This document shows, one piece after another, positions 10,965 through 39,333 of a stretch of DNA of 41,695 bases. The notes under the pieces are model-generated. The model had not been told where the DNA came from, searched no databases, and saw nothing but the letters and a program-made list of their open reading frames with translations. Every line of letters starts with the position of its first letter. The first letter of the stretch is position 1. Source of the stretch: Candidatus Wunengus sp. YC64 (GTDB taxonomy: Bacteria; Planctomycetota; Brocadiia; Brocadiales; Brocadiaceae); NCBI GenBank assembly GCA_052360825.1, contig DBJWYX010000001.1, forward strand, positions 1 to 41,695, written 5' to 3'. A program made the position numbers and the translations under genes.

Positions 10965-13900
10965 TTATCCTACTTCAGTGCTTATAGGTTTTCGGTAAAC
11001 CCTTATCGTTGAAAAAACACCAGGAATAATTGGCAAATGAGCTTGCGTTTGCGTTGGGTCTGTAGGATAAAGCAATGGAATATGTATTACCTCACAATGA
11101 TAGGTATTTTCCATCAACTCCTGGCATGCTTGACGTATACCAGGTTCTTTCCTCCCGTGATGAAAAAGGATTGCTTCTCTATTGTTATTATCAAGGGGAG
11201 GAAGATAATCGTGAAAAATCATCATCCCGCCAGGGGCTAGGAGTGGAAAATAACAAAGTATATCCTGTTTTACTCCCTCATAGGTATGATCACCGTCAAT
11301 AAAGATCATTTTGGCATAATTACCATTTTTTTTAAATAATTGCTGTAAAGATGGAGCCGCTTGTTGAGATGCTGTAGATAAATGAACTACTTCTCCACCA
11401 ATTACTTTCAAAACATCATTCAGTTGAGCCTGTCCGCCTGGCTCAATTGCAAATCCTTGTAATAACGGTGTAATTTTTTTTAGTGCCATATAAATCAGAA
11501 AGAGTGAAGCTCCTGCGTAGGAACCCACCTCAACAAAACGCAAAGGAGATGATTTGTGGGGTAAATAATTTCTTATAGCATAATATAATTGAAAACGTTC
11601 ATTAATAGACATCTGGCTTACTAATCCCTTCGGGGCAGGATCATCATTATGAAATTCATCAATAATCTTTGACGCCACTACCGTGTTAACAGGAAATTTG
11701 TCAGGCTTTTGAAACCAGACACCAGTTCCATCTATTTTACTGAGATCGAACTTTACATTCCGAATTGTTTCATATTCATGAATAGCTTTTTTACAACCTT
11801 CCCAATATCCATAATCATCTATTTGTATCAGGCCATAATTAACAACACGATCGTATAAATTGTGTAAAATTACTTTTGTTGATTCATACCAATCGCCGTC
11901 CATATGCAAGAACGCAATCATACCGGCAGTATCACGCATTTTGGGTAATGTGTCGCGAAAATCACCCTTGACCGTCTTTAAAATATCTGAAACCCCCAAT
12001 TTTGCACAAATGTTTTTGACGCTATCTTCTGGAGCAGCACAGGTTCCTGCTCCCCACCCAGTTGTATTAGCCGCTTGTCCGTTATGCTGATCGTACTCAG
12101 TAGGAAATGGCATACCATCGAAACAATCGAAGGCATATAACCAGCGAGGTTGTTTGCTGTATTTTTTTATGACATACGCAAGTAATGCTGCGGAGCCTCC
12201 TGCTGCTACACCACATTCAACGAAGTTTCCGGGTATATTTTGTTCACACACCCTCTTTGTTAGAGAAAAGAGCGAGAACAATCGTTCCTCACTTAACATC
12301 GTATAAGGGCGAATAACCTGAAGTAATGTGCTGAATTCATTATCAATACACGGCATAGTGGTTGTGTGAGGGTATTGATGAACAATTTGCGTCAGAAGAT
12401 TATTTGCCTCTGAGTTGTTGGGAAAATAGCGAAGTTCTTCCTGTAATGACTCTCTTGCAGAATGATGTTGGCCCAGTTTTATGAAGCACGCTGCCCTAAG
12501 GTAATCAATTCCCTGGGTTGGTAATTTTAATGATTTTGCTCGATTAAGAAATTCAAACGCAGTTTCAAAATGTCCTGTTTTTATTTCTTTTACAGCGTTT
12601 TGAATGCAGGCGGTGATGTCATTTCTATTTACGGTATCTTTCATTGTATGATGCTGATTACTGACTGAATTTGAAGAAATATATTTGCGTATAATTTTAT
12701 CCAGTTCCTTTGCCCTGTTTTGGATAGAATATTCTTTTAAACAACGTTCCTGTCCTTTCCGTGCAATTTCTTCACGTTTTTCTGGATGAGCAAGATAATA
12801 TAAAATCTTATCAATGAGTTCTTTTTCATCTTTAAAAGTTTCTATTTCTATTCCGGGTTCAAAAAATTGTTTCAGGTTTTCATGATACTCTGTCAAAAGG
12901 AACGTGCCGCTGCCGGTAACTTCAAAGATACGCATATTGGCGGTTTCTTTGTTGGCCAGATCCGTTGTTGTCCGAAGTGCAGAATTTTGTATTTGCAAAA
13001 TACCTCTTGCATCCAGTGCTATTTTACCGGTGTGAAGGGCACGATGCATTGCAATACCAAATTGTCCTTCACGATGGTATTGCGCCACCTCCGGAGGGAT
13101 ACTATCTGTTTGACCACTCAGATAAAAAGCACAGGAAAATTCCTTTCCAGGCTGGGAAGCGGCCCTGGCAACTGTTTGCAGGTATTTGTTACGACGGGGA
13201 TGCTGTGTTAATGTCCATTGACCGGAGAATACAACATCATATTGAGGTGTTACCTCGTTAATGATTTCGTTTATCCATGTTGGAAATCCGGGGAAAAAGT
13301 GTTCTGTTGACCTTGCGCCGAGTTTAAGCGCCATACTTCGTAAAGCAGAAAGATTGGATAGTATCACGTCAAATTCGGACCAATCAGTGCCTTCTGGTAT
13401 GTTTGCAGCACGCCATCCTAAAACCAGCTTTGGTTTCCATGATAACGAATTTATAAAACGGCTATCAAACGTTATGGGATCGGTAAGGTACAAAATGTCC
13501 GGTTTTAACGTGTTGATCTGGTTTCGTGTTATTTCTCGTGTCCAATCATGGGTCTTATCGATTGACATATTATTTTCACGCAACCACTGCTCCTGAGCAT
13601 GTTGATTATTGGCAATAATCAGTTGAGAATCATAGCCAAATTCACCCATATAAGGAGCAACCATATGAATTGCGCTGAAACCGTCATAGACTAAATAATT
13701 AATTTGCTCTTTAAATGAAGTGTGAGCAAGGCCAGGATGTATATTGTATAGATTTACCAGATAATTTTGGTAGAAGGTATGTACCTGTAAAAACTTTAAT
13801 GACGCAGTCTCTGGCTTTTTGAAAAAGTTAGCTGATAATGTTTTACTTTTTAAAGTAGGAAATAAATGGTTTTGTTTGTCGATACGGGTGTCCTCTTTAA

Positions 13901-15176
13901 TTTCTGAGATTACTTTAAATATTTCCTCGTCCTTTGGGAAATGTACTGTGAGTGTATCGCAAACTTTATTTGCTTCGCTTGTGCTTCCAAGTTTTGCTAA
14001 TATCTTAGCAAGGTTTATCCCAGCACATTTATCGTTATTATCGAGTGCATATGCTGTTTCAAACTGCTTTTTTGCCTCCAATAGCTTACCACATCGGTAG
14101 TTTATAACGCCGAGCAAGTTAGATACATCAGAACTCTTTCCATATTGGGTAATCAAAAGATTGCATAACTGTTCAGCCTCATCATGATAATTTGCCTTTA
14201 TAAGTTTTTCTGCAAAAGGTAAAAGAGTATCTATATCTTTATGTGGTTGGTTTACTAAGGCATAAATTTCAGAAAGCAACGCGGCTTTTTTACCATTGCC
14301 TTCTGCGATAGAGGATGTTTCTTCTGAAACACTCGGCTTTATTAATGACTTTTTGTTATGACTTGCAGAAAGCCTTCTCACTTCATATTCAAACTTTTCC
14401 GTCCAGAGGAACATGGTATTTACCAAAGGAGCCTTCAAATAAATCAAAGCGGAGAATGCCTTCTCGCGCTTTGTCTCAGGATTGCAATGCATGTCCATAA
14501 GGACATTACATTGCAATGCCTCAAATTCATCCGGTGTGTATTCTGTAAAAATCAGGCGGTTGTTAACTGCTTCCACCCACCACCTATGGTTAGACGTCTT
14601 TGCACTATTCAGAAATATGTCTTTCACCTTTGCAGGTGTTTCAAGGTATCCTCTCTTGGCAATCCTCATAAGTTCCCTGCAAGCTATTTCGGGATTATGA
14701 ACGTGTTCCAGTACATGAGAACAATAAACAAAATCAAACTCCTTATCCGGAAAAGGCATATCTTCCACATTGCATTCGTAAACCGGCTTGCCATGGATGT
14801 GCTTAAAAGGCTTTCCGGCCCTTCCATAGGTGTTGTTGTTAAAAGTAACATCCGATAAGTGAGTAGCAAGAGGAAATGGAAGATGTCCACTGCCAATATC
14901 CAGCACTTTATCTGTGGGTATAATGCCAAAGTTGTAATGGCGTGCCTGATAAAGATTATAACGATCTTTATGTGGCAAAAGTTGATAACAATCATATAGC
15001 TCCGCTAATACATCAATTGCCTGGACAGGATAGGCGATAAGCAATTGCTCGTAGATATCGATAGCCTCAAGAAAATTACCACTTTGGAATTTCTCTCTGG
15101 CAACTATTACATCCTGTTGTAAGTCACACAAATCTATTTTGAATTTTACACGTTTGCCGTATTTAACAGTATTCAT
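10965..15176 (-). CDS. 1403-aa fusion: class I methyltransferase - TPR - CgeB-like GT-B glycosyltransferase - TPR - TylF-type O-methyltransferase - second class I (Methyltransf_24-like) methyltransferase
   Basis: First methyltransferase: VLDIGSGHLPFP...FDFVYCSHVLEHVHNPE...AKRGYLETP (aa 85-215). Glycosyltransferase tail: MRIFEVTGSGTFLLTEYHENLKQFFEPGIEIETF (aa 460-830). TylF-like domain: NFVECGVAAGGSAALL...LHMDGDWYESTK...IQIDDYGYWEG (aa 945-1158). Third methyltransferase: RFVEVGSYAGASL...IFIDGDHTYEGV...GGMMIFHDY (aa 1190-1390). Confidence 0.8.
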   Translation of the reverse strand: MNTVKYGKRVKFKIDLCDLQQDVIVAREKFQSGNFLEAIDIYEQLLIAYPVQAIDVLAELYDCYQLLPHKDRYNLYQARHYNFGIIPTDKVLDIGSGHLPFPLATHLSDVTFNNNTYGRAGKPFKHIHGKPVYECNVEDMPFPDKEFDFVYCSHVLEHVHNPEIACRELMRIAKRGYLETPAKVKDIFLNSAKTSNHRWWVEAVNNRLIFTEYTPDEFEALQCNVLMDMHCNPETKREKAFSALIYLKAPLVNTMFLWTEKFEYEVRRLSASHNKKSLIKPSVSEETSSIAEGNGKKAALLSEIYALVNQPHKDIDTLLPFAEKLIKANYHDEAEQLCNLLITQYGKSSDVSNLLGVINYRCGKLLEAKKQFETAYALDNNDKCAGINLAKILAKLGSTSEANKVCDTLTVHFPKDEEIFKVISEIKEDTRIDKQNHLFPTLKSKTLSANFFKKPETASLKFLQVHTFYQNYLVNLYNIHPGLAHTSFKEQINYLVYDGFSAIHMVAPYMGEFGYDSQLIIANNQHAQEQWLRENNMSIDKTHDWTREITRNQINTLKPDILYLTDPITFDSRFINSLSWKPKLVLGWRAANIPEGTDWSEFDVILSNLSALRSMALKLGARSTEHFFPGFPTWINEIINEVTPQYDVVFSGQWTLTQHPRRNKYLQTVARAASQPGKEFSCAFYLSGQTDSIPPEVAQYHREGQFGIAMHRALHTGKIALDARGILQIQNSALRTTTDLANKETANMRIFEVTGSGTFLLTEYHENLKQFFEPGIEIETFKDEKELIDKILYYLAHPEKREEIARKGQERCLKEYSIQNRAKELDKIIRKYISSNSVSNQHHTMKDTVNRNDITACIQNAVKEIKTGHFETAFEFLNRAKSLKLPTQGIDYLRAACFIKLGQHHSARESLQEELRYFPNNSEANNLLTQIVHQYPHTTTMPCIDNEFSTLLQVIRPYTMLSEERLFSLFSLTKRVCEQNIPGNFVECGVAAGGSAALLAYVIKKYSKQPRWLYAFDCFDGMPFPTEYDQHNGQAANTTGWGAGTCAAPEDSVKNICAKLGVSDILKTVKGDFRDTLPKMRDTAGMIAFLHMDGDWYESTKVILHNLYDRVVNYGLIQIDDYGYWEGCKKAIHEYETIRNVKFDLSKIDGTGVWFQKPDKFPVNTVVASKIIDEFHNDDPAPKGLVSQMSINERFQLYYAIRNYLPHKSSPLRFVEVGSYAGASLFLIYMALKKITPLLQGFAIEPGGQAQLNDVLKVIGGEVVHLSTASQQAAPSLQQLFKKNGNYAKMIFIDGDHTYEGVKQDILCYFPLLAPGGMMIFHDYLPPLDNNNREAILFHHGRKEPGIRQACQELMENTYHCEVIHIPLLYPTDPTQTQAHLPIIPGVFSTIRVYRKPISTEVG

Positions 15177-15197
15177 GTGAAATATTTCTTCCTTCCA

Positions 15198-18100
15198 TTA
15201 GCCCAGATACCTCAGTTTGTCATTGGTAAACATGCGTTGTAGCAAGGAGTCCGCAAAGAATTTGACACCCCAGTCAGGTATTTTATAAGCGCAATAACCA
15301 CCGCCAATCGGGTAAGACCCCGGCAATCCGCCATAAACGTTTTTATCAGAAACACCATCCAGTAGATGTAATTGTTTTATATCATCTAAAAGAAAATCTG
15401 CAACAGGTACTAGCTGAGGGTTATTGGTATATCCCGCTAGTTTTCGCAAAAAATACTCAATCTGTGCATTTCCTGTTACGCACGACCAATGGTCATTACT
15501 ATGCCAATTACAGTCAAAAGTGCCTGGAAGAGTTACATAATTACTACCTTTGTCCATCGCTTTTGCCTTCATATAGAAATCAGCGATGCCTTTGGCGGCA
15601 TTTTGTAAAACGGTTAGCACTTTCCGACGATCAAAATGAGCATTGTCAAGTAAGTAAATTTCCATAAGGCCCACCAATACATAACCAATAAGATGAGTCC
15701 ACGGTTTGTTAGGATCTGATAAGCTGTTGTTTGAAAACCATCCATTTGAGTTTGCCTGTGACAGTGTCCAATCAATTGCGCGTTCTGCAATCTCGCGGTA
15801 TTTTTCATTGCCGTTTATTGTATATAATTCGAGTAAAGCCCATGCAACTCTGCTTTTATAGGCTTTAGGCCCATTGTAAGTGTTTCTTGTCCACATTCCA
15901 TTAGCGTCTTGGATATCGGCAATCCAATCGGCAGCACGATTGGCAGCCTCAAGATATTTCCCTTTTCCTGTTTCTTTGTAAAGCGCTATCCAGCCAATAA
16001 TAACCTGGCTGGTATTAAAAACTCTGGGCCTCTGTCCATAAACGCCAACCGGTTCACCTGCACCACCTTCCGGTGATTGAATCTCTACTTCCCAATCACC
16101 CATCTCAATCGCCCACGTAAGATATAATTCTATTCCTGAGAGCCTGTAGTAACATAAAAAAGTAGGGATTATATAACCGGTAGTTTCCGGATAATCAACA
16201 TCCCACTTTCTTGAATCTAAATGGTACATTGCGGATACTCCGCCACCACAGTTAACATCCTGTGCAACTCTTAACCATTTGATACATGCATCAAGATGGT
16301 CTCTGTCAGGCAAAATAGGGTTTTTCCTTGTGTTATATCTGTCCAGCTCATGCCTTATCCTCGACATTTCGTTTGTGTCACGTTTTATGTTTTTTAACTT
16401 ATTATGAGTTTCAGTCAATAGTTTTTTGATTTCTAAATCGTCAGGAATACAGTTCAAATATGTAGTATAAAGGGTTGTCAAATCCTCATAACGATCTAAT
16501 GAATGTAATATCTTTCCGCACTTAACAACGGTTATACGATCGTCTGGCGTTAACTCGAGCACTTTTAATAAATATTGCCAGGCCTTTTCAGTTTTTCCTG
16601 CTTCCCAAAAGTTAAATCCAAGATTCCGAAAAATATCAATATCATTCCGTGGTCTTCCTGTAGGATTTCGCTGAATCGAAGATTTTATTATTTGTAATGT
16701 CTTGTTGACATCATTATTGAAATCATGCACAATATTCCCATTTTTAATCGCTTCCAAAAAGAACATCTGCTCAGGTCTGTTATCAATCTTGTCAATTTCA
16801 GGCATTCTGCTTTCACCATATTTCTTTTCCTCTACAAGAGAAAAACCAGCCTCCTCAAAAAGGACTTTGAGGCTTTCAAAGTCATAAACGTATTTACAGT
16901 GTTTTCCACCAGCCTGGAAACCATAAAAGAATTCGTTAAATTTGTCTGCGATTGTCTTGCCCGGAAAACGCTCACGCCCATCTTTCAGTTTCTGGAAATA
17001 AAATTCGCAGTCATTGTTCAGATATTTTTCTGAAAGAATGCGTAAGTCCTGCGTACCAAAACGAGCAATACCGCCTTGCTTTAATACACGAAAAACATCT
17101 TTAATAATTTCAATCGCACGCTGTCTTGAAAAATAATTAATTGCGGACATACAAACGACGGCAACCACGCTTTCATCAGGAAAAGGCAACAGCTCCCTTT
17201 CGAGATCCAATACCATATCCGCATTTGGGGAAACATCTATGTTAATAAATCCATCCAACTTAATGGGGCCGCAGCATAAATTTATTTTTGCCTCAGTTTT
17301 TGCAGTTTTTGTCTTGATATCTTTTGCCGGAATGCGTTGTTGCTTGCTATGGGTATGTCTTTGTTCGAGAAAGTATGACAAACAATTATTCAGACAAAAT
17401 TCCGGCGCATTACCTGTTAAAATATTCCATCGGAACTTTCTATATTCAGGATTATTCCAAATATCGAGAACATCCATTTCAAAAATATTTCCGAAACAGG
17501 TGGCTTTGTTGAAATCATGGCAGCATATTATCACTGAACCATCAAGTAAAATGGTAAAAACATTTTGAGGATTTGGGCATTCACGTATGGCTAATCTGAG
17601 CGATCCTATGTCATTGTAATATTTACGTTGTAATTCAGGATGATCAGAATAGGAAAATTGTGCTTCATTTGTGCGAATATATGGCGCTTTAAAGGTCGCA
17701 TGAAGTCCTAATGATTTACAATATTTCCGGAATGACTCCATTTCATGTTGATTATGTTTGAATACAACGAACTGAGGGTATATGTGAACCTTGTTGCCGT
17801 GTTTCATGTTAAAATGGTGTAAAATTTCTAAAGACGACATGGCCTTTTTAACATTACCGCCTTTCCGGTATTTCTCGTAAACTTCCTGGGTAACTCCATC
17901 TATTGAAACAATAATATCTGCAACGCCGGACGTTATTAATTCCTCAGTCTTTTCCGGGGTAAGGGAGATGCCATTGGTGCTGATATTCGTTTTGCAAAAT
18001 TCTGAAGCATATTGTGTCATAGAAATAATATCTTTATTCAGCATGGGCTCACCCCATAAATGAAGATAAAGATATTTGGCATGAGGACGGATTCTATCCG

Positions 18101-18272
18101 CAATAATTTTGAAGTGTTCAAAGCTCATAAACCCTTTTTTGCGTAGTACCGAGTCCCCACCAAGAGCACACTCCGGGCATTTCAGATCACATGCAAGCGC
18201 AGTTTCAATACTAAAGGTCTCTGGCAGCATTTTGTTAAATTCTTCCGTGGTTATTGATTGTTTATTTATCAT
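15198..18272 (-). CDS. 1024-aa fusion: radical SAM with SPASM/twitch-like Cys cluster - class I methyltransferase - TPR-like linker - (alpha/alpha) toroid domain (terpene-cyclase/prenyltransferase/LanC/AGE-like fold)
   Basis: CX3CX2C at C28/C32/C35 (ALACDLKCPEC). Cys-rich region ECPNP...IICCHD...ATCFG...EFCLNNC at aa 231-297. Methyltransferase signature INLCCGPIKLDGFINID...VLKQGGIARF at aa 328-510. The C-terminal region (aa 655-1015) has repeated aromatic/Gly hairpin motifs: YPETTGYIIPTF, QVIIGWIALYKETG, SRVAWALLELY, WTHLIGYVLVGL. Confidence 0.8.
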   Translation of the reverse strand: MINKQSITTEEFNKMLPETFSIETALACDLKCPECALGGDSVLRKKGFMSFEHFKIIADRIRPHAKYLYLHLWGEPMLNKDIISMTQYASEFCKTNISTNGISLTPEKTEELITSGVADIIVSIDGVTQEVYEKYRKGGNVKKAMSSLEILHHFNMKHGNKVHIYPQFVVFKHNQHEMESFRKYCKSLGLHATFKAPYIRTNEAQFSYSDHPELQRKYYNDIGSLRLAIRECPNPQNVFTILLDGSVIICCHDFNKATCFGNIFEMDVLDIWNNPEYRKFRWNILTGNAPEFCLNNCLSYFLEQRHTHSKQQRIPAKDIKTKTAKTEAKINLCCGPIKLDGFINIDVSPNADMVLDLERELLPFPDESVVAVVCMSAINYFSRQRAIEIIKDVFRVLKQGGIARFGTQDLRILSEKYLNNDCEFYFQKLKDGRERFPGKTIADKFNEFFYGFQAGGKHCKYVYDFESLKVLFEEAGFSLVEEKKYGESRMPEIDKIDNRPEQMFFLEAIKNGNIVHDFNNDVNKTLQIIKSSIQRNPTGRPRNDIDIFRNLGFNFWEAGKTEKAWQYLLKVLELTPDDRITVVKCGKILHSLDRYEDLTTLYTTYLNCIPDDLEIKKLLTETHNKLKNIKRDTNEMSRIRHELDRYNTRKNPILPDRDHLDACIKWLRVAQDVNCGGGVSAMYHLDSRKWDVDYPETTGYIIPTFLCYYRLSGIELYLTWAIEMGDWEVEIQSPEGGAGEPVGVYGQRPRVFNTSQVIIGWIALYKETGKGKYLEAANRAADWIADIQDANGMWTRNTYNGPKAYKSRVAWALLELYTINGNEKYREIAERAIDWTLSQANSNGWFSNNSLSDPNKPWTHLIGYVLVGLMEIYLLDNAHFDRRKVLTVLQNAAKGIADFYMKAKAMDKGSNYVTLPGTFDCNWHSNDHWSCVTGNAQIEYFLRKLAGYTNNPQLVPVADFLLDDIKQLHLLDGVSDKNVYGGLPGSYPIGGGYCAYKIPDWGVKFFADSLLQRMFTNDKLRYLG

Positions 18273-30071: not shown

Positions 30072-31361
30072 TCAATGTTTCCGGAAAACAGATTCGACAA
30101 TCTTTCCTTTAAGAAGTGATTTCAGCTCTTTTGATTCATCGTTATTCTTTATCAAAGAAAAAATCTGATCGTAAGCGTTTAGTGTTTGATTAATTTCATT
30201 CTCGGTGTGGGAAACACTTATGATATGATACCCAGCGTATAAGATTCCTCGTTTTATCATCTCTTGCTGAACAATACTTTTAAGAAGTAAGTCATCATTA
30301 CCGTGTTTATCCGTAAAAAACATAAACGTCTTAGGAGGATACCCTTTCAAATGTATTCGGCGTTCAAGATCATATTTATTTAATAAGATACTTACCCCGT
30401 CTATGAGTATATTGCCCATTTTCCATATATGAGATATCGCATTAGTTGTCGCTAATTCCTTTATTACCGTTAATCCTGCGGTAATACCAACCAAGTCTCC
30501 CCCAAAAGTGAAAGAATAAAAGATTTCATCAAATATTTTCATAATGTCACTATTGCCTACAATAACTGAAATTGGGAATCCGTTACCCAATGCTTTGCCA
30601 AAACAAGCAAGATCAGGGGTAATGCCAAAGAATTCTTGCGCACCACCGATGGCCCATCGGAAACCAGTCCAGCATTCGTCGTAAATAACCAGTGCACCGT
30701 TGTTGTGGGCTATTTTATTGATTCTTTCTAAAAAATTATCTTTCGGGGGTTCCAAACCAACAGGTTCGAGAATAACACATGCAATTTGGTCGGGATGGAG
30801 AGAGAATAGTCTTTCAAGCGAAGCAGGATTATTGTATTCAAAGGTAACCGTTAATTCTTTAATGGCTTTTGGCACGCCGAGGTTACGCGTGGTAGTACCA
30901 ATATACCAATCCTGCCACCCATGATAGCCACAGCAGGCAATCATATTCCTTCCGGTATATGCTCTTGCAGTACGAACTGCCCCTGATGTTGCATCAGATC
31001 CATTTTTACCAAATCTCACCATCTCGGCACAGGGAATGGTTTCACATAATTTCTCAGCCAGTTCAATTTCCTTGTGATGCGGTAATGAGAAGGCGACTCC
31101 TTTGTCTATCTGAGATTTAACTGCCTCGTTAACCTTTGGATTATTGTGCCCCAGGATAATTGGACCTAAGGCCATGGGCCAATCTATAAATTTGTTTCCA
31201 TCTACGTCCCATACAAAGCAGCCATCAGCTCTATCTAAAAATATTGGTGATACACCGAATGGGTATTGTGTCCATCCCTTGCTAAACGTCTGTGTGCCGG
31301 AGGGTATATACTTTATAGCATTATCAAACATACCCAGGGATTGGCTGAAAGTTAGAGGCAT
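30072..31361 (-). CDS. Class III PLP-dependent aminotransferase (glutamate-1-semialdehyde aminomutase-like)
   Basis: FVWDVDGNKFIDW...GPIILGHNNP, VRFGKNGSDAT, IYDECWTGFRW, and the PLP-lysine context CFGKALGNGFPIS. Confidence 0.85.
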   Translation of the reverse strand: MPLTFSQSLGMFDNAIKYIPSGTQTFSKGWTQYPFGVSPIFLDRADGCFVWDVDGNKFIDWPMALGPIILGHNNPKVNEAVKSQIDKGVAFSLPHHKEIELAEKLCETIPCAEMVRFGKNGSDATSGAVRTARAYTGRNMIACCGYHGWQDWYIGTTTRNLGVPKAIKELTVTFEYNNPASLERLFSLHPDQIACVILEPVGLEPPKDNFLERINKIAHNNGALVIYDECWTGFRWAIGGAQEFFGITPDLACFGKALGNGFPISVIVGNSDIMKIFDEIFYSFTFGGDLVGITAGLTVIKELATTNAISHIWKMGNILIDGVSILLNKYDLERRIHLKGYPPKTFMFFTDKHGNDDLLLKSIVQQEMIKRGILYAGYHIISVSHTENEINQTLNAYDQIFSLIKNNDESKELKSLLKGKIVESVFRKH

Positions 31362-32206
31362 ACCATATCCTTTGTTAAAGATTTCTTATAACCCTCATCG
31401 CGCAGGATATGTTTATTAATTACCCTAATTTCAGGATATTTATTAAGTGTCTGGAGGATGTCTCGCCATGAAGCATCTACAAGTGAAATTGACAAGGATT
31501 TTGACAATTCTTGTAAGAATATAAAATCGTCAGGTTCATCGATGGTCCAACGTTCATCTCTAAGGTTTTCAGGACATGAGTAATTAATAGCTTGAAACAT
31601 ATATTCTGATGTTTCATTTATTGGTATGCATACATCTGGAAAGATTTCTTCAGTTTCGTAATTGAGGGATTTATAAAGGTTCTTGCCGTGTAATTGGGTG
31701 CGTTTGAGAATCCAAGGAACAACGTGCTCTCTTTCTGAAGCAAGTTTTGCATTCTTCCATGCCAATTCTAAAGCATTAAAAGAGAATACGCATACATCGA
31801 GACCATCAGGAAAAGCAGTGGCAACTGCGAGATCTACATTCGACTGATGGTAGCTCTTGATTACGTTATCTATGATATCTGGATCTACCAAAGGGCAATC
31901 TCCCGTTAATCTCACAATGTGATTGACCCCATATGACAAGGATGCTTGATAGTATCGGTCTAAAACATCTTTTTCTGATCCTCTGAAACAGGGAATTTCG
32001 TGTTGTTGGGCAACATACTCAATGGCGCCGTTTGCGGGTTCTGTTGATGTCACAACAACGATACCATCTAATTCTTTTGAACGTTTTAACCTTTCCAGCA
32101 TAACTCCTATAACAGGTTTCCCTTGTAAAGACATAAGGACCTTTCCTGGTAATCGTGATGAGTGTACTCTGGCCTGCAATAAAGCAACAGTATTATGCAT
32201 TTTCAT
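31352..32206 (-). CDS. SpsF-type cytidylyltransferase (CMP-ulosonic acid synthetase family candidate)
   Basis: ALLQARVHSSRLPGKVL...GKPVI...VVVTS...GSEKDVLDRYY...RLTGDCPLVDP, as in the CTP_transf_3/SpsF family. It overlaps the downstream aminotransferase gene by 10 nt. Confidence 0.75.
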   Translation of the reverse strand: MKMHNTVALLQARVHSSRLPGKVLMSLQGKPVIGVMLERLKRSKELDGIVVVTSTEPANGAIEYVAQQHEIPCFRGSEKDVLDRYYQASLSYGVNHIVRLTGDCPLVDPDIIDNVIKSYHQSNVDLAVATAFPDGLDVCVFSFNALELAWKNAKLASEREHVVPWILKRTQLHGKNLYKSLNYETEEIFPDVCIPINETSEYMFQAINYSCPENLRDERWTIDEPDDFIFLQELSKSLSISLVDASWRDILQTLNKYPEIRVINKHILRDEGYKKSLTKDMVCL

Positions 32207-32371
32207 ATAATTCCCTTATGGTGAGAACCCTATGTAGTTCCTTTAAAAAAGTTTTCTTGAGATGTTCCGTATAATCGGGAAAATCTCCTGAAAAAGTGTC
32301 AAACATTAAAAGTATTTAAATTACTGTAAATTCTATTTGCAGAAATTTATATAGTAAAATATCGGTAAAAA

Positions 32372-33052
32372 TCATTTTGTAAATTCTGATGAATAATAAG
32401 TGTGTTCTACCACACAATTATTCTTTTGAGCTACTGCGCATAAATATTCTCTGTTTTTTTCTTCATCAATAGTAAGATTTTGCTTATGAAGTCTGTATCT
32501 GTAAAGTGGCAAGTTTATACGTTCTATTTTATAGTGTTTTTCGAAACGTATTCGAAAATCAACATCCTCTCCAATATGAAGTTCAGTATCATATAAACCT
32601 ATATTTATCATCAGACCTTTTTTAAACATGATCCCGCAAGCAATGGGCCGTTCATGGACACTCATTTTATTGAGAATCGTTTCCTTGTCATCGACGAGAA
32701 AATAGTCAGTTGCCACGGCATCAGAATGATTAAATTGCATGTATAGATAGCAAAATTTCAGAAAATCAGGATGCAAATAATCATCCGCATCAAGATTGAC
32801 GATGTAATCACCTTTTGCATTCATAATGCCTTGATTACGAGAATAAGGTAAGCCTTTGTTATCAGCATGATCTATTACACGAATCCAATGACCGTAGGAC
32901 TCTAAAATATATTTTGTGGAATCCTTACTGCTGTCGTTGACAACGATAATTTCAAAATCTGTTTTGGAAAGAGATTGCTCTATGCAGCTTCTGATTGCCC
33001 TTGCAATGTATTTATCATAATTGAATGTCGGAATAATTATGCTTATTTTCAT
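32372..33052 (-). CDS. GT2 family glycosyltransferase (226 aa)
   Basis: ISIIIPTFNYDKYI...IIVVNDSSKDST...LDADD. Confidence 0.85.
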   Translation of the reverse strand: MKISIIIPTFNYDKYIARAIRSCIEQSLSKTDFEIIVVNDSSKDSTKYILESYGHWIRVIDHADNKGLPYSRNQGIMNAKGDYIVNLDADDYLHPDFLKFCYLYMQFNHSDAVATDYFLVDDKETILNKMSVHERPIACGIMFKKGLMINIGLYDTELHIGEDVDFRIRFEKHYKIERINLPLYRYRLHKQNLTIDEEKNREYLCAVAQKNNCVVEHTYYSSEFTK

Positions 33053-33055
33053 GGT

Positions 33056-34120
33056 TTATTCCAGATAATCCCAGAGTATCTGCTGATCTCTTTGTATTGT
33101 TGTTTTCAATTTTCGCCCTAAGGTTTTATGGAAGAGTGAAGGAGAAATACCTCCGCCTGGACGTTTTGGAATGAGCATATCCTTTGTGAGAACAGTTCCC
33201 TGAGGAATGACTTCATTTGCTACTAAACTCCGTCGAGCATTCTTCCGTGCAGGCATTTCTGAATCAACAATTTCAGCAGTTATGGCAGTAGTCTCCTCGG
33301 CTAATTTAATATGCTTTATCATCCGGCGTAGCAAGGTAGTGTCAGCGGAATGATAATGATCATCTTCAGGAAGAGTACGATCTAAGGTAAAATGCTTTTC
33401 TACAATTTTGGCACCCAAAGCCACCGCAATTGCAGGAATGATTATGTCTTCGTCGGGAACGGTATGGTCTGAATAACCAATAGTAATTTCAGGAAACAAC
33501 TTTTTTAGTTCTGCTATTCTATATAAATTTGCTTCACCATTAGGGGTTGGATATGAAAGGGTACAATGCATTAGAGCCAATTCTTTTACGCTTTTTGATA
33601 TTAAGAAATCAACGGCATTGCTGACTTCTTTGAAGTAGGAGGCGCCAGTTGAAAGGATTATTGGTTTTTGCGTTTGAGCAATTTCCTCAAGTAATGGATA
33701 GTTGTCTAAGTCACCTGATGCAACCTTCATGAAAGGGATATCCAGATCGTTCAGCCACCTCACGGATTGATGATCAAATGGGGTTGAACAAAAGTTAATT
33801 TCCTTTTTCTTTGCATATTCATTTAACACTTGATAATCTTCAAAATTAAATTTATCCCTTTTTTGAAAACAATCAGCTTGTGTTTTATATTTTTTGCTGT
33901 TATTTTGTTTCCAGTAGGTAGGGGCCCAATGCGTTACCAGGGTATCTGCTTTATAGGTTTGAAATTTAATAGTATCTGCCCCGGCTTCGGCAGCAGCATT
34001 TATAAGTTCTTTTGCTTTCCTTAAATCACAATCATGATGTACACCAGCTTCTGCAATAATAAAGGTATTGCAGGTTTTGTTTTTCTTGTGTTGAGATAAA
34101 AAATTTCTATTTTGCTCCAT
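33056..34120 (-). CDS. NeuB-family ulosonic acid synthase (sialic/pseudaminic/legionaminic acid synthase type) with C-terminal SAF domain
   Basis: FIIAEAGVHHDCDLRKAKELINAAAEAGADTIKFQTY, GYSDHT, and the SAF-like tail RRSLVANEVIPQGTVLTKDMLIPKRPGGGI. The exact substrate cannot be told from sequence. Confidence 0.88.
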   Translation of the reverse strand: MEQNRNFLSQHKKNKTCNTFIIAEAGVHHDCDLRKAKELINAAAEAGADTIKFQTYKADTLVTHWAPTYWKQNNSKKYKTQADCFQKRDKFNFEDYQVLNEYAKKKEINFCSTPFDHQSVRWLNDLDIPFMKVASGDLDNYPLLEEIAQTQKPIILSTGASYFKEVSNAVDFLISKSVKELALMHCTLSYPTPNGEANLYRIAELKKLFPEITIGYSDHTVPDEDIIIPAIAVALGAKIVEKHFTLDRTLPEDDHYHSADTTLLRRMIKHIKLAEETTAITAEIVDSEMPARKNARRSLVANEVIPQGTVLTKDMLIPKRPGGGISPSLFHKTLGRKLKTTIQRDQQILWDYLE

Positions 34121-37215: not shown

Positions 37216-37494
37216 TTATGAAAGATGTTTTGAAGAAACCATTTCTTCAGATGTGGACTTTTTTACACCTTTTCGCCATATTTGGGCAATTTCTATTAGA
37301 TCATGTTTAGACACTGTGGAAGCCTTCTGGTTTTCCTCTTGAATCTTTTCGAAAATTTCTTCCCGATGAACCTTGATATTTTTTGGCGCTATGATGCCCA
37401 ACTTAACCTGTTTGCCCTGGCATTCTAATAGGGTAACTTTTATTTCGCTTCCTATGGTGATGCTTTCTCCTAACTTCCTTGTCAGTATAAGCAC
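37216..37494 (-). CDS. csrA: Carbon storage regulator CsrA (92 aa, GTG start, long C-terminal extension)
   Basis: [47 protein letters not shown] is the canonical CsrA core. It lies immediately downstream of fliW. The start codon is the complement of 37492..37494, which is GTG. Confidence 0.92.
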
Positions 37495-37523
37495 GGTACT
37501 TTACCTTTCTGAAAGTTGATCAA

Positions 37524-37994
37524 TTAATATCGAATGAGCTGTTGGTTTAAGCTGTAATAGTCCTCTGTGAGCACGACCTGTTTCCCCATTTTATTTTTCA
37601 TGTTAATGAGTATCGGTCCTTTTAGATTTAGCGTTACATCTTCTGGCTTTTTCCCCAGGGTAACAATACAAAACATTTCAACGTCTTTTTCCTTTTTGAT
37701 GTTAAGCAAGACAAGATCATCTTTTGATAGAGAGGGTTTATAATCAGAGAAAAAGAGTGTTGGATTAAGGATGGGAAAAGCAACCATCGGGTCTTCCAAA
37801 GAAACCAGCCATTCAAAAGGAAGACATTCTTCAACAGCTATAATGGCAAATTGTTTCAGCTCTTCAAATCCCAATAATCCTTGTTCAAATGTTATTATAT
37901 TTTCCTTTTCAATGCTCAAGTTGCCGAAATTACTCGTTGATAATTTTACTACCGTACTGCTTTCTTTCATTGGCCTTTCTTCCATTTTTAACAT
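37524..37994 (-). CDS. fliW: Flagellar assembly factor FliW (CsrA antagonist)
   Basis: NIITFEQGLLGFEELKQFAII...PFEWLVSLEDPMVAFPILNP...INMKNKMGKQVVL. An AGGAG sits 6 nt upstream of the ATG at 37994. Confidence 0.9.
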   Translation of the reverse strand: MLKMEERPMKESSTVVKLSTSNFGNLSIEKENIITFEQGLLGFEELKQFAIIAVEECLPFEWLVSLEDPMVAFPILNPTLFFSDYKPSLSKDDLVLLNIKKEKDVEMFCIVTLGKKPEDVTLNLKGPILINMKNKMGKQVVLTEDYYSLNQQLIRY

Positions 37995-38048
37995 GTTATG
38001 CTCCTGTCGTGGATAAAGTTTAAAGAAATAAAATTATTAGTGAAATTT

Positions 38049-38064
38049 AGCAAACATTGTGCCA
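38049..38064 (-). promoter_or_regulatory. Sigma-54 (RpoN) -24/-12 promoter upstream of fliW-csrA-TPR
   Basis: The minus strand reads TGGCACaatgtTTGCt, a full match to the TGGCAC-N5-TTGCW consensus. It is located about 55 nt upstream of the fliW ATG, inside the 296-bp flgL-fliW spacer. Confidence 0.6.
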
Positions 38065-38290
38065 TGAAATGCGCATGAAATTATGTAAAATGTGAATGAG
38101 ATTCTATTCTATTTAAAATAATGAACTTAAGAATGGTGTGGTTTATATTCGTTTTAATCAATGATGTGATTTATTAAAAAAAAGGGGAAAATTATTCCAT
38201 ATAGGTAAAAAATTCTAAGGGGGATATATTCCGTAGATTAGTGAGGATGTAATATCTTTACACAGGTTGATTAATTTTTATACAGGGAAT

Positions 38291-39202
38291 TTATCTTAAA
38301 AAATCAAGAAGGGTCTGTTGAATGACCATTGCGCCTGTTTTCAGGGAGGATTGAAGGACGTTTTCCTGGTGTTGCAAGTCTACAATTAAAGATGCGACGT
38401 CAGCGTCTTCGGTATATGAAATCAGTTCCTTTAATGCCGTTTGTGAATTTCCCAGGCTGTTTGTGGTCATTTCCAACCTGTTAGCCTTTGCGCCAAACTT
38501 GGTAATTTCTGTAGATAGGGCATTCGTCGCAGTATCAAAGGTGTTTCTCAAGTTTGAAAAGGCTGTGGAATCAAAAGTGCTTGCCTTTAATGCGTCTCGT
38601 AATGATATCAGTGTGGAGAAGGCCTTATTGTCCTGGAATAATTTACCTCCGGGTAAGTTTACCTGTATTAATGTGTCGGGGCCTATCTGGTATTTAATTT
38701 CTTCATTATTACCGTTGTAGGATACAGATGTAATGTTACCATTGCTGTCCCGTGTGGCTGTAAAAGCAGATGTGAGAGTCTTTGTGCCTGAAAATATATA
38801 TCGGCCATTATTGTCTGTGTTTGCGTTTTGCAGAACAGACTCCAGCAATTCGTCTAATTCATTTGCAATGATGTTCCTGTCAGACTGTCCAAGTGTATCA
38901 TTACCAGCTTGAATGGCCAGATCTTTGATCTTCAAAAAGAGTTCCTGTATGCTTTCGAGCGTGTTGGATGTGTAATTTATCTGTTCTTTAGCAGTTTCGG
39001 TATTATCTAAAAATTGCTGTACCTGGAGCTCTTCTGCTCTTAAACCAAGGACTTTTCTGGTGCCAGAGGGGTCGTCAGAAGGGCGGTTAATTTGTTTTCC
39101 ACTGGATAGCTTTTCCTGTATTCCTTGTATTTTCTTATAGTTCAAATTGATATTAGAAAGTGTTGTGCGGTTTAAGCTTTCCTGGGTTATTCTGAAGGGC
39201 AT
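38291..39202 (-). CDS. flgL: Flagellar hook-associated protein 3 (hook-filament junction) FlgL
   Basis: Flagellin-type N-terminus RITQESLNRTTLSNINLNYKKIQGIQEKLSSGKQINRPSDDPSG and C-terminus DADVASLIVDLQHQENVLQSSLKTGAMVIQQTLLDFL. It follows flgK. A GGAG sits 8 nt upstream of the ATG. Confidence 0.9.
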   Translation of the reverse strand: MPFRITQESLNRTTLSNINLNYKKIQGIQEKLSSGKQINRPSDDPSGTRKVLGLRAEELQVQQFLDNTETAKEQINYTSNTLESIQELFLKIKDLAIQAGNDTLGQSDRNIIANELDELLESVLQNANTDNNGRYIFSGTKTLTSAFTATRDSNGNITSVSYNGNNEEIKYQIGPDTLIQVNLPGGKLFQDNKAFSTLISLRDALKASTFDSTAFSNLRNTFDTATNALSTEITKFGAKANRLEMTTNSLGNSQTALKELISYTEDADVASLIVDLQHQENVLQSSLKTGAMVIQQTLLDFLR

Positions 39203-39259
39203 AGTTTAATCTCCAATAATTAAGTAAATTAGGCTGCCTGCGGCGGCAACTTTTAAGCT

Positions 39260-39333
39260 CCCCTCTAGAAAGAGGGGCTGGGGATGTGTTGTGGCAAACA
39301 TACACACCCCTTTATCCCCTCTTTTTAGAGGGG
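39260..39333. repeat. Three adjacent GC-rich stem-loops in the flgK-flgL spacer; the two outer ones share the same 7-bp stem
   Basis: First hairpin: CCCCTCT-agaa-AGAGGGG (39260-39277). Second, imperfect hairpin: GGGGaTGTGT...ACACACCCC (39280-39310). Third hairpin: CCCCTCT-tttt-AGAGGGG (39316-39333). The structures are visible directly; their function is unknown. Confidence 0.55.

What the first reader, a model, noticed from the sequence alone, without database searches (positions are those of the whole stretch)
10965..15176. 1403-aa protein carrying three different methyltransferase domains and one glycosyltransferase domain
The domain order is Methyltransf_11-like, TPR, CgeB-like GT-B, TPR, TylF-like, then Methyltransf_24-like. 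TylF (macrocin O-methyltransferase) relatives are classical sugar O-methyltransferases. Three distinct methyltransferase folds on one chain with one sugar-adding domain suggests that one sugar is added and then methylated at several positions without release. That would give a strongly hydrophobic, permethylated residue.
Basis: partly seen in the sequence, partly recalled or inferred. Interest (0 to 1): 0.62.

Follow-up and report, generated by a model that had tools for sequence, protein, structure and literature searches.

The report
Fused sugar-adding, triple-methylating flagellar glycan enzyme
A real 1403-residue gene in the flagellar sugar island of an anammox bacterium fuses one sugar-adding domain to three intact methyl-adding domains; it most likely builds heavily methylated sugars on the flagellar filament protein, but it belongs to a large, widespread and untested enzyme family, so it is not a one-off.

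Summary
ORF 10965-15176 (minus strand) encodes a 1403-aa soluble protein. Its domain order is Methyltransf_11/23, TPR, CgeB-like GT-B, TPR, TylF, Methyltransf_24. All three methyltransferase domains keep their SAM-binding and catalytic residues across 19 full-length homologues. The TylF domain is closest to SpnH, MycF and NovP, which O-methylate sugars already attached to an acceptor.

The gene lies in a 41-kb run of soluble enzymes downstream of flgK-flgL-fliW-csrA, with nonulosonic-acid genes and ten glycosyltransferase domains. No protein in the run has a membrane segment. This fits direct cytoplasmic glycosylation of flagellin.

The architecture is common: hundreds of homologues occur in more than ten phyla. 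It is made of two modules that also occur alone. One is MT11-GT, always preceded by a radical-SAM/toroid gene. The other is TPR-TylF-MT24, usually followed by a GT1 gene. Full-length homologues also occur in bacteria without flagellin.

So "one sugar, methylated three times without release" is possible and has precedent (spinosyn, PBCV-1 A064R/A061L). The evidence favours methyl groups spread over one or two residues instead. This is an uncharacterised variant of a known kind, of moderate interest.

The parts
10965..15176 (-). Whole ORF: 1403-aa soluble MT11-TPR-GT-B-TPR-TylF-MT24 fusion (P0001)
   Evidence: ORF and translation; Pfam matches; no hydrophobic segment with KD19 >= 1.8; homologues
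14397..14999 (-). N-terminal class I SAM methyltransferase domain (Methyltransf_11/23), residues about 60-260. Motif I is V91-L-D93-x-G95-S-G97; acidic D109
   Evidence: Pfam; invariant residues in 19 homologues; 58-74% identical to most full-length homologues, 94% and 99% to the two closest
13887..14219 (-). TPR1 insertion, residues about 320-430. Detected only in this clade (P0002, P0003, P0006, P0025)
   Evidence: TPR_19 51.7 bits; domain survey
12657..13814 (-). GT-B glycosyltransferase domain, residues about 455-840 (CgeB-like Glyco_trans_1_2 C-terminal half). Invariant R749, F751, E752, G755, G757, E777, E779
   Evidence: Pfam; model pLDDT 95.4; Foldseek hits to SdgB, PimB', TreT, GlgM, ManT, TarM and GtfA at TM 0.5-0.6 and 9-14% identity; invariants
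12372..12644 (-). TPR2, residues about 845-935. Lies directly in front of the TylF domain in nearly all relatives that have one
   Evidence: Sub-threshold TPR_6/ANAPC3 hits; conserved position; weak profile hits to TPR structures
11682..12359 (-). TylF/MycF/NovP-type metal-dependent sugar O-methyltransferase domain, residues about 940-1165. Motifs: E987-C-G-V-A-x-G-G-S; F1016-D1017; H1091-M-D1093-G-D1095; D1120-D1121-Y1122
   Evidence: Pfam 155 bits; alignments to SpnH, NovP and MycF; invariants; Foldseek target-normalised TM 0.81-0.87 to the truncated SpnH/MycF chains, 0.67-0.71 to the fuller MycF/NovP chains
10968..11639 (-). Methyltransf_24 (CCoAOMT/CmcI/MeT1-like) O-methyltransferase domain, residues about 1180-1403. 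Motifs: G1218-S-x-x-G1222-x-S; E1245-P; D1294-G-D1296-H; H1322-D1323. Ends in the conserved tail DPTQTQAHLPIIPGVFSTIRxYRKP
   Evidence: Pfam 101.5 bits; invariants; modelled together with TylF at pLDDT 90.1, pTM 0.89; MeT1 and CCoAOMT-like structural neighbours
15198..18272 (-). Upstream partner gene: radical SAM-SPASM-(MT)-(alpha/alpha)6 toroid, 1024 aa. Separated from the target by 21 nt
   Evidence: Pfam; found directly upstream wherever MT11 is present in about 10 distinct loci, 47-61% identical; fused to the target family in P0005, P0007 and P0027
8056..10923 (-). Downstream partner gene: GT1-TPR-GT2, 955 aa. Separated from the target by 41 nt
   Evidence: Pfam; a GT1-domain gene follows the family in L013-L017 and L022; 53% identical over 53% of its length to the gene after the Limnospira TPR-TylF-MT24 gene
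37216..41379 (-). Flagellar genes flgK, flgL-like, fliW and csrA-sized ORF that head the same-strand run
   Evidence: Pfam FlgK_D1, Flagellin_N/C and FliW; ORF list
31352..34120 (-). Nonulosonic-acid genes (NeuB synthase, GT2, CMP-cytidylyltransferase) in the same island
   Evidence: Pfam NeuB 264 bits, CTP_transf_3 102.7 bits
3..569 (-). GDP-mannose 4,6-dehydratase (cut by the contig end): source of a 6-deoxyhexose donor
   Evidence: Pfam GDP_Man_Dehyd 293.9 bits; GMD homologues within 10 kb of relatives in 6 loci

Best explanation
The gene encodes a soluble cytoplasmic enzyme that works in the flagellin O-glycan pathway of an anammox bacterium. It is a fusion of two modules that evolve independently.

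Module A is the Methyltransf_11 domain plus the GT-B domain. It works with the radical-SAM/toroid protein encoded just upstream. It adds one sugar from a nucleotide sugar to the growing glycan and methylates it once.

Module B is TPR2-TylF-Methyltransf_24, which is predicted to be one rigid double O-methyltransferase. It puts two further methyl groups on sugar hydroxyls after the sugar has been transferred, as SpnH, MycF and NovP do. Its substrate is probably a 6-deoxyhexose made through the island's GDP-mannose dehydratase. That sugar is added either by the internal GT or by the GT1 domain of the next gene.

The TPR blocks tether the enzyme to the protein acceptor or to partner enzymes, by analogy with FlmG.

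The net product is a di- to tri-O-methylated, hydrophobic and probably chain-ending part of the glycan.

Shown: the domains, intact motifs, solubility, synteny and flagellar context. Inferred: the acceptor, the donor, the positions methylated, and whether the methyl groups share one residue.
For: Domains and cut-offs.

Catalytic and SAM residues are invariant in 19 full-length homologues and match SpnH, NovP and MycF position by position.

The GT-B model has pLDDT 95.4. Its neighbours are GT4-type enzymes, including the protein O-glycosyltransferases SdgB and GtfA and the methylmannose-polysaccharide ManT.

The TylF+MT24 model has pTM 0.89. Its nearest structures are SpnH, MycF, NovP, MeT1 and CalS11.

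Context: flgK-flgL-fliW head the same-strand run, with NeuB, a CMP-transferase, ten GT domains and GMD. None of the 26 proteins has a clear membrane segment, and there is no flippase, ABC transporter or oligosaccharyltransferase.

The genome's two 304-aa flagellins have Ser/Thr/Ala-rich centres and are flanked by GT2-TPR or TPR genes.

Relatives lie within 10 kb of flagellin or flgK/flgL in Ignavibacteriota, Azospira, Verrucomicrobiota, Nitrospira and other Planctomycetota.

Module independence and partner genes.

Functional precedents:
- FlmG: its TPR binds flagellin (PMC7591256).
- A064R/A061L: add a rhamnose, then methylate O-2, then O-3 (PMC9614988).
- The anammox relative Kuenenia carries methyl-HexNAc and a putative dimethyl-deoxyhexose on a surface glycoprotein (PMC5088730).
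Against: There is no biochemical or glycan-structure evidence for this organism or for any family member.

Full-length homologues exist in genomes with no flagellin: Desulfonema magnum (8 Mb, complete) and a Thiomargarita MAG. The TPR-TylF-MT24 form is common in cyanobacteria. The family is therefore not flagellin-specific, and the target here could be another surface protein.

The flagellin genes are on other contigs.

CalS11, a family relative, methylates the nucleotide sugar before transfer.

Donor and acceptor cannot be read from the sequence. GT similarity to solved enzymes is only 9-14% identity.
Confidence: 0.6

Rival explanations
1. The internal GT adds one sugar, and the three MT domains methylate that same residue at three positions without releasing it. 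For a terminal 6-deoxyhexose this would be O-2, O-3 and O-4. The result is a permethylated hydrophobic cap.
For: There are three intact MT domains of three different subfamilies on one chain with one GT. A 6-deoxyhexose has exactly three free hydroxyls, and GMD is in the island. SpnH, the closest solved relative, belongs to the SpnG/I/K/H set that attaches and tri-O-methylates one rhamnose (PMC9415975, PMC4213763). A064R-D3 and then A061L methylate the same terminal rhamnose in strict order (PMC9614988).
Against: MT11-GT and TPR-TylF-MT24 occur separately in many genomes, each with its own partner gene. The cyanobacterial TylF-MT24 form keeps the downstream GT1 neighbour but has no internal GT. 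Desulfonema has four MT domains around this GT. Nine other GT domains and at least two other MT genes in the island give many alternative acceptor sugars.
Confidence: 0.2
2. The enzyme has the same chemistry, but the acceptor is not flagellin. It could be an S-layer or other surface glycoprotein, a pilin, or a free or lipid-bound polysaccharide.
For: Full-length homologues occur in flagellin-free Desulfonema magnum and Thiomargarita. The Limnospira homologue sits near GT41 genes and a pilin gene. [quoted passage not shown] Limnospira/Arthrospira polysaccharide contains 3-O-methyl- and 2,3-di-O-methyl-rhamnose (PMC11339812).
Against: In this genome the gene lies in one same-strand run with flgK-flgL-fliW-csrA and nonulosonic-acid genes. 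The run has no export, flippase or lipid-carrier genes and no membrane proteins. That is the signature of cytoplasmic flagellin glycosylation, not of secreted-protein or polysaccharide pathways. Several distant relatives are directly next to flagellin genes.
Confidence: 0.2
3. The cassette makes a cytoplasmic polymethylated oligo- or polysaccharide by alternating glycosyl transfer and methylation, like mycobacterial methylmannose polysaccharide. It does not make a protein-linked glycan.
For: The parts list resembles the MMP cluster, which has a GT4-type GT-B (ManT), two O-MTs (MeT1, pMeT3) and an (alpha/alpha)6 hydrolase (MmpH) (PMC9883506). ManT and MeT1 appear among the structural neighbours of the GT and MT models. 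The upstream partner carries an (alpha/alpha)6 toroid. All proteins are soluble.
Against: The similarities are at fold level only (9-17% identity). TPR modules occur on nearly every large enzyme of the island, and flagellar or pilin neighbourhoods recur. Both point to protein acceptors. No radical-SAM partner exists in the MMP system.
Confidence: 0.07
4. One or more MT domains act on the nucleotide-activated sugar before transfer (CalS11-type). The GT then transfers an already methylated sugar.
For: CalS11, a TDP-rhamnose 3'-O-methyltransferase, is a detectable relative of the TylF domain by sequence and by fold.
Against: The TylF domain is far closer to SpnH, MycF and NovP (E 1e-22 against 2e-5), which act after glycosyl transfer. 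The viral A064R system also methylates after transfer (PMC9614988).
Confidence: 0.1
5. One of the three MT domains is a non-catalytic structural or SAM-sensing remnant.
For: Tandem MT domains in other proteins sometimes include a pseudo-enzyme. TylF and MT24 are predicted to pack as one unit.
Against: SAM-loop glycines, the acidic residue and the metal/base Asp or His residues are invariant or at least 90% conserved in every domain across phyla.
Confidence: 0.05

Closest known systems
SpnH, MycF, NovP and TylF: sugar O-methyltransferases of spinosyn, mycinamicin, novobiocin and tylosin pathways (PDB 4cdz/4ce0, 4x7u, 2wk1)
   Same: The TylF domain matches them at E 1e-22 to 1e-19. It keeps the SAM loop, the FD.F.G.P motif, and the MDGD.YEST and DDY metal/base residues. 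Target-normalised TM is 0.81-0.87 to the truncated SpnH/MycF chains and 0.67-0.71 to the fuller MycF/NovP chains. These enzymes methylate a hydroxyl of a deoxysugar already attached to its acceptor.
   Different: They are stand-alone enzymes of about 250-280 aa from actinomycete secondary metabolism. Here the domain lacks their first ~67 profile positions, is preceded by TPR repeats, and is fused to another MT, a GT and a third MT in a flagellar glycan island. Identity is only 24-31%.
PBCV-1 A064R (rhamnosyltransferase-rhamnosyltransferase-methyltransferase) with A061L
   Same: One polypeptide adds sugars and then O-methylates the terminal one. A second MT adds a second methyl to the same rhamnose only after the first. 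The system is soluble and cytoplasmic (PMC9614988).
   Different: The GT folds are unrelated (A064R has a GT-A domain and a new family), it has one MT per chain, the glycan is a viral capsid N-glycan, and it has no TPR. The similarity is functional logic only, not homology.
FlmG flagellin O-glycosyltransferase of Caulobacter and Brevundimonas
   Same: It has a TPR plus GT-B architecture, is soluble, and lies in flagellar or nonulosonic-acid gene neighbourhoods. Its TPR binds flagellin (PMC7591256; bioRxiv 10.1101/2022.03.25.485807).
   Different: FlmG is 596 aa, has no methyltransferase domain and transfers pseudaminic or legionaminic acid directly to Ser/Thr. Sequence relatedness of the GT domains could not be tested here.
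Mycobacterial methylmannose polysaccharide cluster (ManT, MeT1, pMeT3, MmpH)
   Same: It combines a GT4-type GT-B, several regiospecific sugar O-MTs and an (alpha/alpha)6 protein in one soluble pathway (PMC9883506). ManT and MeT1 are structural neighbours of the models.
   Different: The proteins are separate. There are no TPR repeats, no radical-SAM partner and no protein acceptor. Identity is only 11-17%.
O-glycan of the Kuenenia stuttgartiensis S-layer protein Kustd1514
   Same: The organism is also an anammox bacterium (Kuenenia per PMC5088730; one search shows only that the window's genome has an HZS_alpha match). The glycan is extensively methylated, with one or two methyl-HexNAc and a putative dimethyl-deoxyhexose (PMC5088730).
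   Different: No genes were assigned in that study. Only this genome among 61 of the order has the full-length gene. The acceptor there is an S-layer protein, not flagellin.

Membership tests
TylF/MycF/NovP O-methyltransferase family (PF05711) | Profile match above the curated cut-off | tested here: met
   155 bits against a cut-off of 23, residues 958-1157, profile positions 68-264 of 264
TylF/MycF/NovP O-methyltransferase family (PF05711) | Glycine-rich SAM loop, plus the Asp residues that bind the metal and act as base (MDGD...DDY) | tested here: met
   E-C-G-V-A-A-G-G-S, H-M-D-G-D-W-Y-E-S-T and I-D-D-Y align with the same residues of SpnH, NovP and MycF. They are invariant in 19 homologues.
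TylF/MycF/NovP O-methyltransferase family (PF05711) | Class I MT fold superposable on solved members | tested here: met
   Foldseek target-normalised TM is 0.81-0.87 to the truncated SpnH/MycF chains and 0.67-0.71 to the fuller MycF/NovP chains, E about 1e-13 to 4e-15
TylF/MycF/NovP O-methyltransferase family (PF05711) | Metal-dependent O-methylation of a sugar hydroxyl | not testable with these tools
   Needs an enzyme assay
Methyltransf_24 (PF13578; CCoAOMT/CmcI-like) | Profile match above cut-off with the SAM loop and the D-x-D-H / H-D metal motif | tested here: met
   101.5 bits against 26.3. G1218, S1219, G1222, S1224, G1295 and H1322 are invariant; E1245, D1294, D1296, H1297 and D1323 are at least 90% conserved.
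Methyltransf_11/23 class I SAM methyltransferases | Profile match above cut-off, motif I and the acidic residue after beta-2 | tested here: met
   46.5 and 39.2 bits against 21.2 and 27. V91, L92, D93, G95, S96, G97 and D109 are invariant. The PF08241 match covers only the C-terminal half of that profile.
GT-B glycosyltransferases, CgeB-like Glyco_trans_1_2 (PF13524) | Profile match and a two-Rossmann-domain GT-B fold with conserved C-terminal Glu residues | tested here: met
   93.3 bits against 25. Model pLDDT 95.4. 412 PDB GT-B matches at E <= 1e-3. E752, E777 and E779 are invariant.
CAZy GT4 retaining glycosyltransferases | Sequence-level membership or retaining mechanism | tested here: inconclusive
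   The nearest structures are GT4-type, but only at 9-14% identity and TM 0.5-0.6. No PDB hit by sequence or by profile.
FlmG-type flagellin glycosyltransferase | TPR domain plus GT-B domain in one soluble protein | tested here: met
FlmG-type flagellin glycosyltransferase | Homology of the GT domain to FlmG, flagellin binding by the TPR, transfer of a nonulosonic acid | not tested
   No FlmG sequence was available. The PF13524 search rang in all 14 control genomes and so was uninformative. Binding and activity need experiments.
Flagellin glycosylation island | Glycan genes contiguous with flagellar structural or regulatory genes | tested here: met
   flgK, flgL-like and fliW head the same-strand run, with NeuB and a CMP-transferase inside it
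Flagellin glycosylation island | Flagellin gene adjacent, or glycan shown on flagellin | tested here: not met
   Both flagellin genes lie on other contigs, C58 and C136, of this fragmented MAG. Adjacency is seen in relatives L014, L024, L031, L033 and L066. There are no glycan data.

The most novel reading that the evidence does not exclude
A single polypeptide works as an add-and-permethylate machine. Its GT-B domain installs a terminal 6-deoxyhexose on the flagellin O-glycan. Its three regiospecific O-methyltransferase domains then convert that residue, in fixed order, into a 2,3,4-tri-O-methyl sugar that caps the chain and makes the filament surface hydrophobic. It acts with a dedicated radical-SAM/toroid partner, as part of a cassette conserved across more than ten phyla.
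Probability: 0.18. Interest if true: 0.62.

Novelty: new variant of a known kind. Interest (0 to 1): 0.4.

Why it matters
Sugar O-methylation on bacterial surface glycoproteins is widely observed. Examples are anammox S-layer glycans, flagellin glycans of Aeromonas, Pseudomonas and Clostridioides, and cyanobacterial polysaccharides. The enzymes responsible are rarely assigned.

This family offers a ready candidate. It has 360 clusters (50% identity) at E <= 1e-30 for the TylF-MT24 half alone. It ties TylF-type enzymes, known from antibiotic pathways, to protein-glycan tailoring. Its modular forms carry one to four MT domains, which gives a natural experiment for relating domain content to the degree of methylation.

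The strict pairing of the MT11-GT module with a radical-SAM/(alpha/alpha)6 protein points to undescribed sugar chemistry upstream of the methylation steps.

For anammox bacteria, it suggests where the unusual methylated surface sugars may come from.

Tried and rejected
1. Testing relatedness to FlmG. No FlmG sequence was at hand, and the PF13524 family search rang in all 14 control genomes, so it says nothing.

2. Literature search for TylF-type enzymes in flagellin glycosylation, and for TPR plus O-methyltransferase plus flagellin. Both returned zero papers.

3. Sequence and profile searches of the PDB for the GT domain found nothing. The domain had to be folded.

4. Desulfobaculum xiamenense as a cultured example with flagellin next to the gene was rejected. 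The nearby-looking flagellin hit is on a different contig, and the same-contig hit is about 90 kb away.

5. Paralogy between the N-terminal MT11 domain and the MT-like middle of the upstream radical-SAM partner was rejected. Only generic motif similarity was found, E 0.02-0.1.

6. The second strong PF13524 protein of the genome (C114, 706 aa) is a CgeB-like GT with a long, uncharacterised C-terminal region. It matches only residues 723-833 at 34% identity and is not a paralogue of the fusion.

7. The promoter and terminator scan of 7000-19000 gave no more sites than shuffles, and none at the gene borders. It adds nothing beyond the short 21- and 41-nt gaps.

8. A look-up of earlier scan notes by sequence found no look-alike stretch.

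9. Cluster look-up for organism names of the closest homologues returned no names.

Full report
**The observation**

The minus strand carries one uninterrupted ORF from 15176 to 10965 (1403 aa, ATG start). Pfam places the following on it, each above the curated cut-off:
- Methyltransf_11/23 at residues 77-219.
- TPR_19 at residues 363-422.
- Glyco_trans_1_2 at residues 708-825.
- TylF at residues 958-1157 (155 bits).
- Methyltransf_24 at residues 1215-1324 (101.5 bits).

A second TPR stretch at about 850-930 gets only sub-threshold hits. It is nevertheless conserved directly in front of the TylF domain in nearly all relatives that have one. [quoted passage not shown] An AlphaFold model of residues 445-850, built on 72 sequences, is a complete and confident GT-B fold (pLDDT 95.4, pTM 0.92).

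**Are the domains likely to be active?**

It fails. In an alignment of 19 full-length homologues at 52-77% identity, these residues are invariant or nearly so:
- MT11: V91-L-D93-x-G95-S-G97 and D109.
- TylF: E987-C-G-V-A-x-G-G-S995, F1016-D1017, H1091-x-D1093-x-D1095 and D1120-D1121-Y1122.
- MT24: G1218-S-x-x-G1222-x-S1224, E1245-P1246, D1294-G-D1296-H1297 and H1322-D1323.
- GT: R749, F751, E752, G755, G757, E777 and E779.

The TylF residues align one-to-one with the SAM loop and the metal/base aspartates of SpnH, NovP and MycF.

A model of residues 935-1403 has pLDDT 90.1 and pTM 0.89. For a two-domain model, that pTM suggests TylF and MT24 pack as one rigid unit; this is an inference. Its best structural matches are SpnH (spinosyn rhamnosyl 4'-O-methyltransferase), MycF and NovP. 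Target-normalised TM is 0.81-0.87 to the truncated SpnH/MycF chains and 0.67-0.71 to the fuller MycF/NovP chains. Next come MeT1 of the mycobacterial methylmannose pathway, CalS11 and CCoAOMT-like enzymes.

The GT model's neighbours are GT4-type enzymes: SdgB, PimB', TreT, GlgM, the methylmannose ManT, TarM and GtfA. Similarity is only TM 0.5-0.6 and 9-14% identity. The fold is therefore settled, but the family, donor and mechanism are not.

**Context**

Every ORF of 150 aa or more is on the minus strand, apart from one 166-aa plus-strand frame inside the target gene. The run starts with flgK, a flgL-like gene, fliW and a csrA-sized ORF. It continues as follows:
- a TPR protein;
- a radical-SAM/SPASM gene, NeuB, a GT2, a CMP-cytidylyltransferase, an aminotransferase and a UDP-sugar dehydrogenase;
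- three B12-radical-SAM genes and two methyltransferases;
- a 514-aa TPR protein;
- a 1024-aa radical-SAM-SPASM-toroid fusion;
- the target;
- a 955-aa GT1-TPR-GT2, a 283-aa ORF, a 1187-aa GT2-GT4-TPR and a 918-aa triple-GT2-TPR;
- GDP-mannose 4,6-dehydratase at the contig end.

The target is 21 nt from its upstream neighbour and 41 nt from its downstream neighbour. No promoter or terminator signal stands out above shuffles.

None of the 26 proteins has a clear membrane segment, and no flippase, ABC transporter, Wzy or oligosaccharyltransferase is present. A pathway that is all soluble and rich in TPR repeats, next to flagellar genes and nonulosonic-acid genes, is the pattern of cytoplasmic flagellin O-glycosylation. 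In Caulobacter FlmG, the TPR half binds flagellin and the GT-B half transfers the sugar (PMC7591256).

The genome is a 2.6-Mb MAG, 79% complete. It has a strong hydrazine-synthase alpha match, so it is an anammox bacterium. Its two 304-aa flagellins have Ser/Thr/Ala-rich centres. They lie on other contigs, flanked by GT2-TPR or TPR genes and fliD.

**How common is the architecture?**

It is very common. A search of the 90%-clustered protein collection returned 490 hits among the 8000 candidates scored. The top 121 proteins break down as follows:

| Architecture | Count |
|---|---|
| MT11-GT-TylF-MT24 (the query's architecture) | 24 |
| GT-TylF-MT24 | 31 |
| TPR-TylF-MT24, no GT (mostly cyanobacteria) | 21 |
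| MT11-GT-TylF, 12 of them with a different C-terminal MT | 29 |
| GT-TylF, no MT11 or MT24 | 10 |
| MT11-GT only | 6 |

Several are further fused to radical-SAM/SPASM domains.

The TylF-MT24 half alone finds 360 clusters (50% identity) at E <= 1e-30. Genome records place relatives in Thiomargarita, Desulfonema, Geobacter, Melioribacteraceae, Azospira, Desulfovibrio, Pelotalea, Pararhodospirillum, Nitrospira, Planctomycetota, Verrucomicrobiota and Bacillota. NCBI already labels members "TylF/MycF/NovP-related O-methyltransferase".

Within the window's own order, only this genome of 61 has the full-length gene. I infer that this is a variable, probably exchanged, island gene.

**Two modules**

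Neighbour analysis of 85 fetched loci gives a clear pattern. A homologue of the upstream radical-SAM-SPASM-(MT)-toroid protein lies directly upstream wherever the MT11 domain is present. This holds in about ten distinct full-type loci at 47-61% identity, and also in L023, L064, L070 and L073, which have MT11 with or without GT and no TylF. It is never found upstream of MT11-less forms.

The TPR-TylF-MT24 part is instead followed by a GT1-domain gene. In Limnospira, which lacks the internal GT, that neighbour is 53% identical to the window's downstream GT1-TPR-GT2 over 53% of that protein's length (E 1e-158).

The protein is therefore best read as a fusion of two units:
- Module A: MT11-GT, working with the radical-SAM/toroid protein.
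- Module B: a double O-methyltransferase, working with, or just before, a GT1.

In Desulfonema magnum the MT11 part is a separate 369-aa ORF. The remaining 1306-aa ORF there carries an extra Methyltransf_25 domain, giving four MT domains around one GT.

Adding one sugar and methylating it at several positions has good precedent:
- In the spinosyn pathway, spnG, spnI, spnK and spnH encode rhamnose attachment and methylation, and spinosyns carry a tri-O-methylated rhamnose (PMC9415975, PMC4213763).
- In PBCV-1, A064R adds a rhamnose and methylates O-2, after which A061L methylates O-3 (PMC9614988).
- The island's GMD could supply a 6-deoxyhexose, which has exactly three free hydroxyls.

Against it, the modules occur independently, their partner genes differ, Desulfonema has four MT domains, and nine more GT domains sit in the same run. 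The methyl groups may therefore be spread over at least two residues. The only anammox glycan analysed so far shows that pattern: methyl-HexNAc plus a putative dimethyl-deoxyhexose on the Kuenenia S-layer protein (PMC5088730).

I commit to the two-module model. One methyl goes with the internally added sugar. Two methyls come from the rigid TylF-MT24 pair, probably on one deoxyhexose. I rate strict single-residue tri-methylation at about 0.2.

**Is the acceptor flagellin?**

For this genome, flagellin is the best reading. The gene is contiguous with flagellar genes and there is no export machinery. Relatives also lie within 10 kb of flagellin or flgK/flgL genes in several phyla: L014, L024, L031, L033, L066, L020, L046, L051 and L057.

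The family as a whole is not flagellin-specific. Desulfonema magnum (complete genome) and a Thiomargarita MAG have full-length homologues but no flagellin. The Limnospira form sits near GT41 genes and a pilin gene. Limnospira/Arthrospira polysaccharide contains 3-O-methyl- and 2,3-di-O-methyl-rhamnose (PMC11339812). A non-flagellin target therefore remains a real rival here, at about 0.2.

A polymethylated-polysaccharide reading, with MMP-like parts (PMC9883506), and CalS11-like methylation of the nucleotide sugar are minor rivals.

**Verdict**

The gene is an uncharacterised variant of a known kind: soluble, TPR-tethered glycan-tailoring enzymes of flagellin islands, and GT-MT fusions such as A064R. 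Its main value is threefold. It is a candidate for the unassigned sugar O-methylations on bacterial surface glycoproteins. It shows that TylF-type enzymes are widely used outside antibiotic pathways. It exposes a conserved pairing with a radical-SAM/toroid protein. Interest is moderate at 0.4, because the family is large, is already annotated by homology, and nothing here is mechanistically surprising yet.

Earlier scan notes were used only as leads. I checked the anammox assignment and the synteny of the radical-SAM fusion independently.

Noticed in passing
L104 (G056:C2:15000-34000), ORF 7041-16307: A genome of a related genus in the same family encodes a 3088-aa single ORF. Its domains are sulfotransferase, TylF, Methyltransf_11, GT1, TPR, B12-radical SAM, three GT2 and TPR. 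It is preceded by a second sulfotransferase, a GT2, a DegT aminotransferase and an MT. It looks like a whole glycan-tailoring pathway fused into one chain.
   Followed up: partly
L022 (Desulfonema magnum chromosome), 4770-15059: The genome has no flagellin, yet it keeps the cassette. It has a 1555-aa fusion of the TPR-514 protein with radical SAM-SPASM-MT-toroid. Next comes MT11 as a separate 369-aa ORF. Then comes a 1306-aa GT-Methyltransf_25-TPR-TylF-MT24, so four MT domains in all. Whether the MT11 split is natural or a frameshift was not checked.
   Followed up: partly
window 10986-11084 (-), residues 1365-1397: The C-terminal tail PLLYPTDPTQTQAHLPIIPGVFSTIRxYRKP is almost invariant, from this planctomycete to cyanobacteria. 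It is modelled with high confidence as an extended segment ending in a beta-strand. Its role is unknown; it could dock a partner or close the MT24 site.
   Followed up: no
window 1-41695: None of the 26 ORFs has a clear membrane segment. The only borderline case is the C-terminus of the 285-aa GT2 at 27822-28679. The whole island is soluble, with no export or lipid-carrier genes.
   Followed up: yes
window 7223-8074 (-): A 283-aa ORF with no Pfam family (only a Methyltransf_23 hint at E 0.01). It overlaps the upstream GT1-TPR-GT2 gene by 19 nt. No homologue was seen in the related loci.
   Followed up: no
L001 (G000:C58) and L002 (G000:C136): The two 304-aa flagellins are highly similar to each other and have Ser/Thr/Ala-rich central regions. 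One is followed by a GT2-TPR gene. The other is preceded by a 416-aa TPR protein and followed by a fliD-like gene. Further TPR or GT genes therefore sit right at the flagellin genes.
   Followed up: partly
L016 (Limnospira chromosome CP091467.1): A 1222-aa TPR-TylF-MT24 gene is followed by an 805-aa GT1, which is 53% identical to the window's downstream gene. Within 9 kb lie another MT, two GT41 (OGT-like) genes and a pilin gene. This may be a pilin or polysaccharide methyl-sugar locus in a cyanobacterium known for methylated rhamnose (PMC11339812).
   Followed up: partly
L005 (G000:C114), ORF 937-3054: The same genome has a 706-aa protein with an N-terminal CgeB-like GT and a long C-terminal region of unassigned function. 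It is unrelated to the fusion beyond the GT C-terminal half, at 34% identity.
   Followed up: partly
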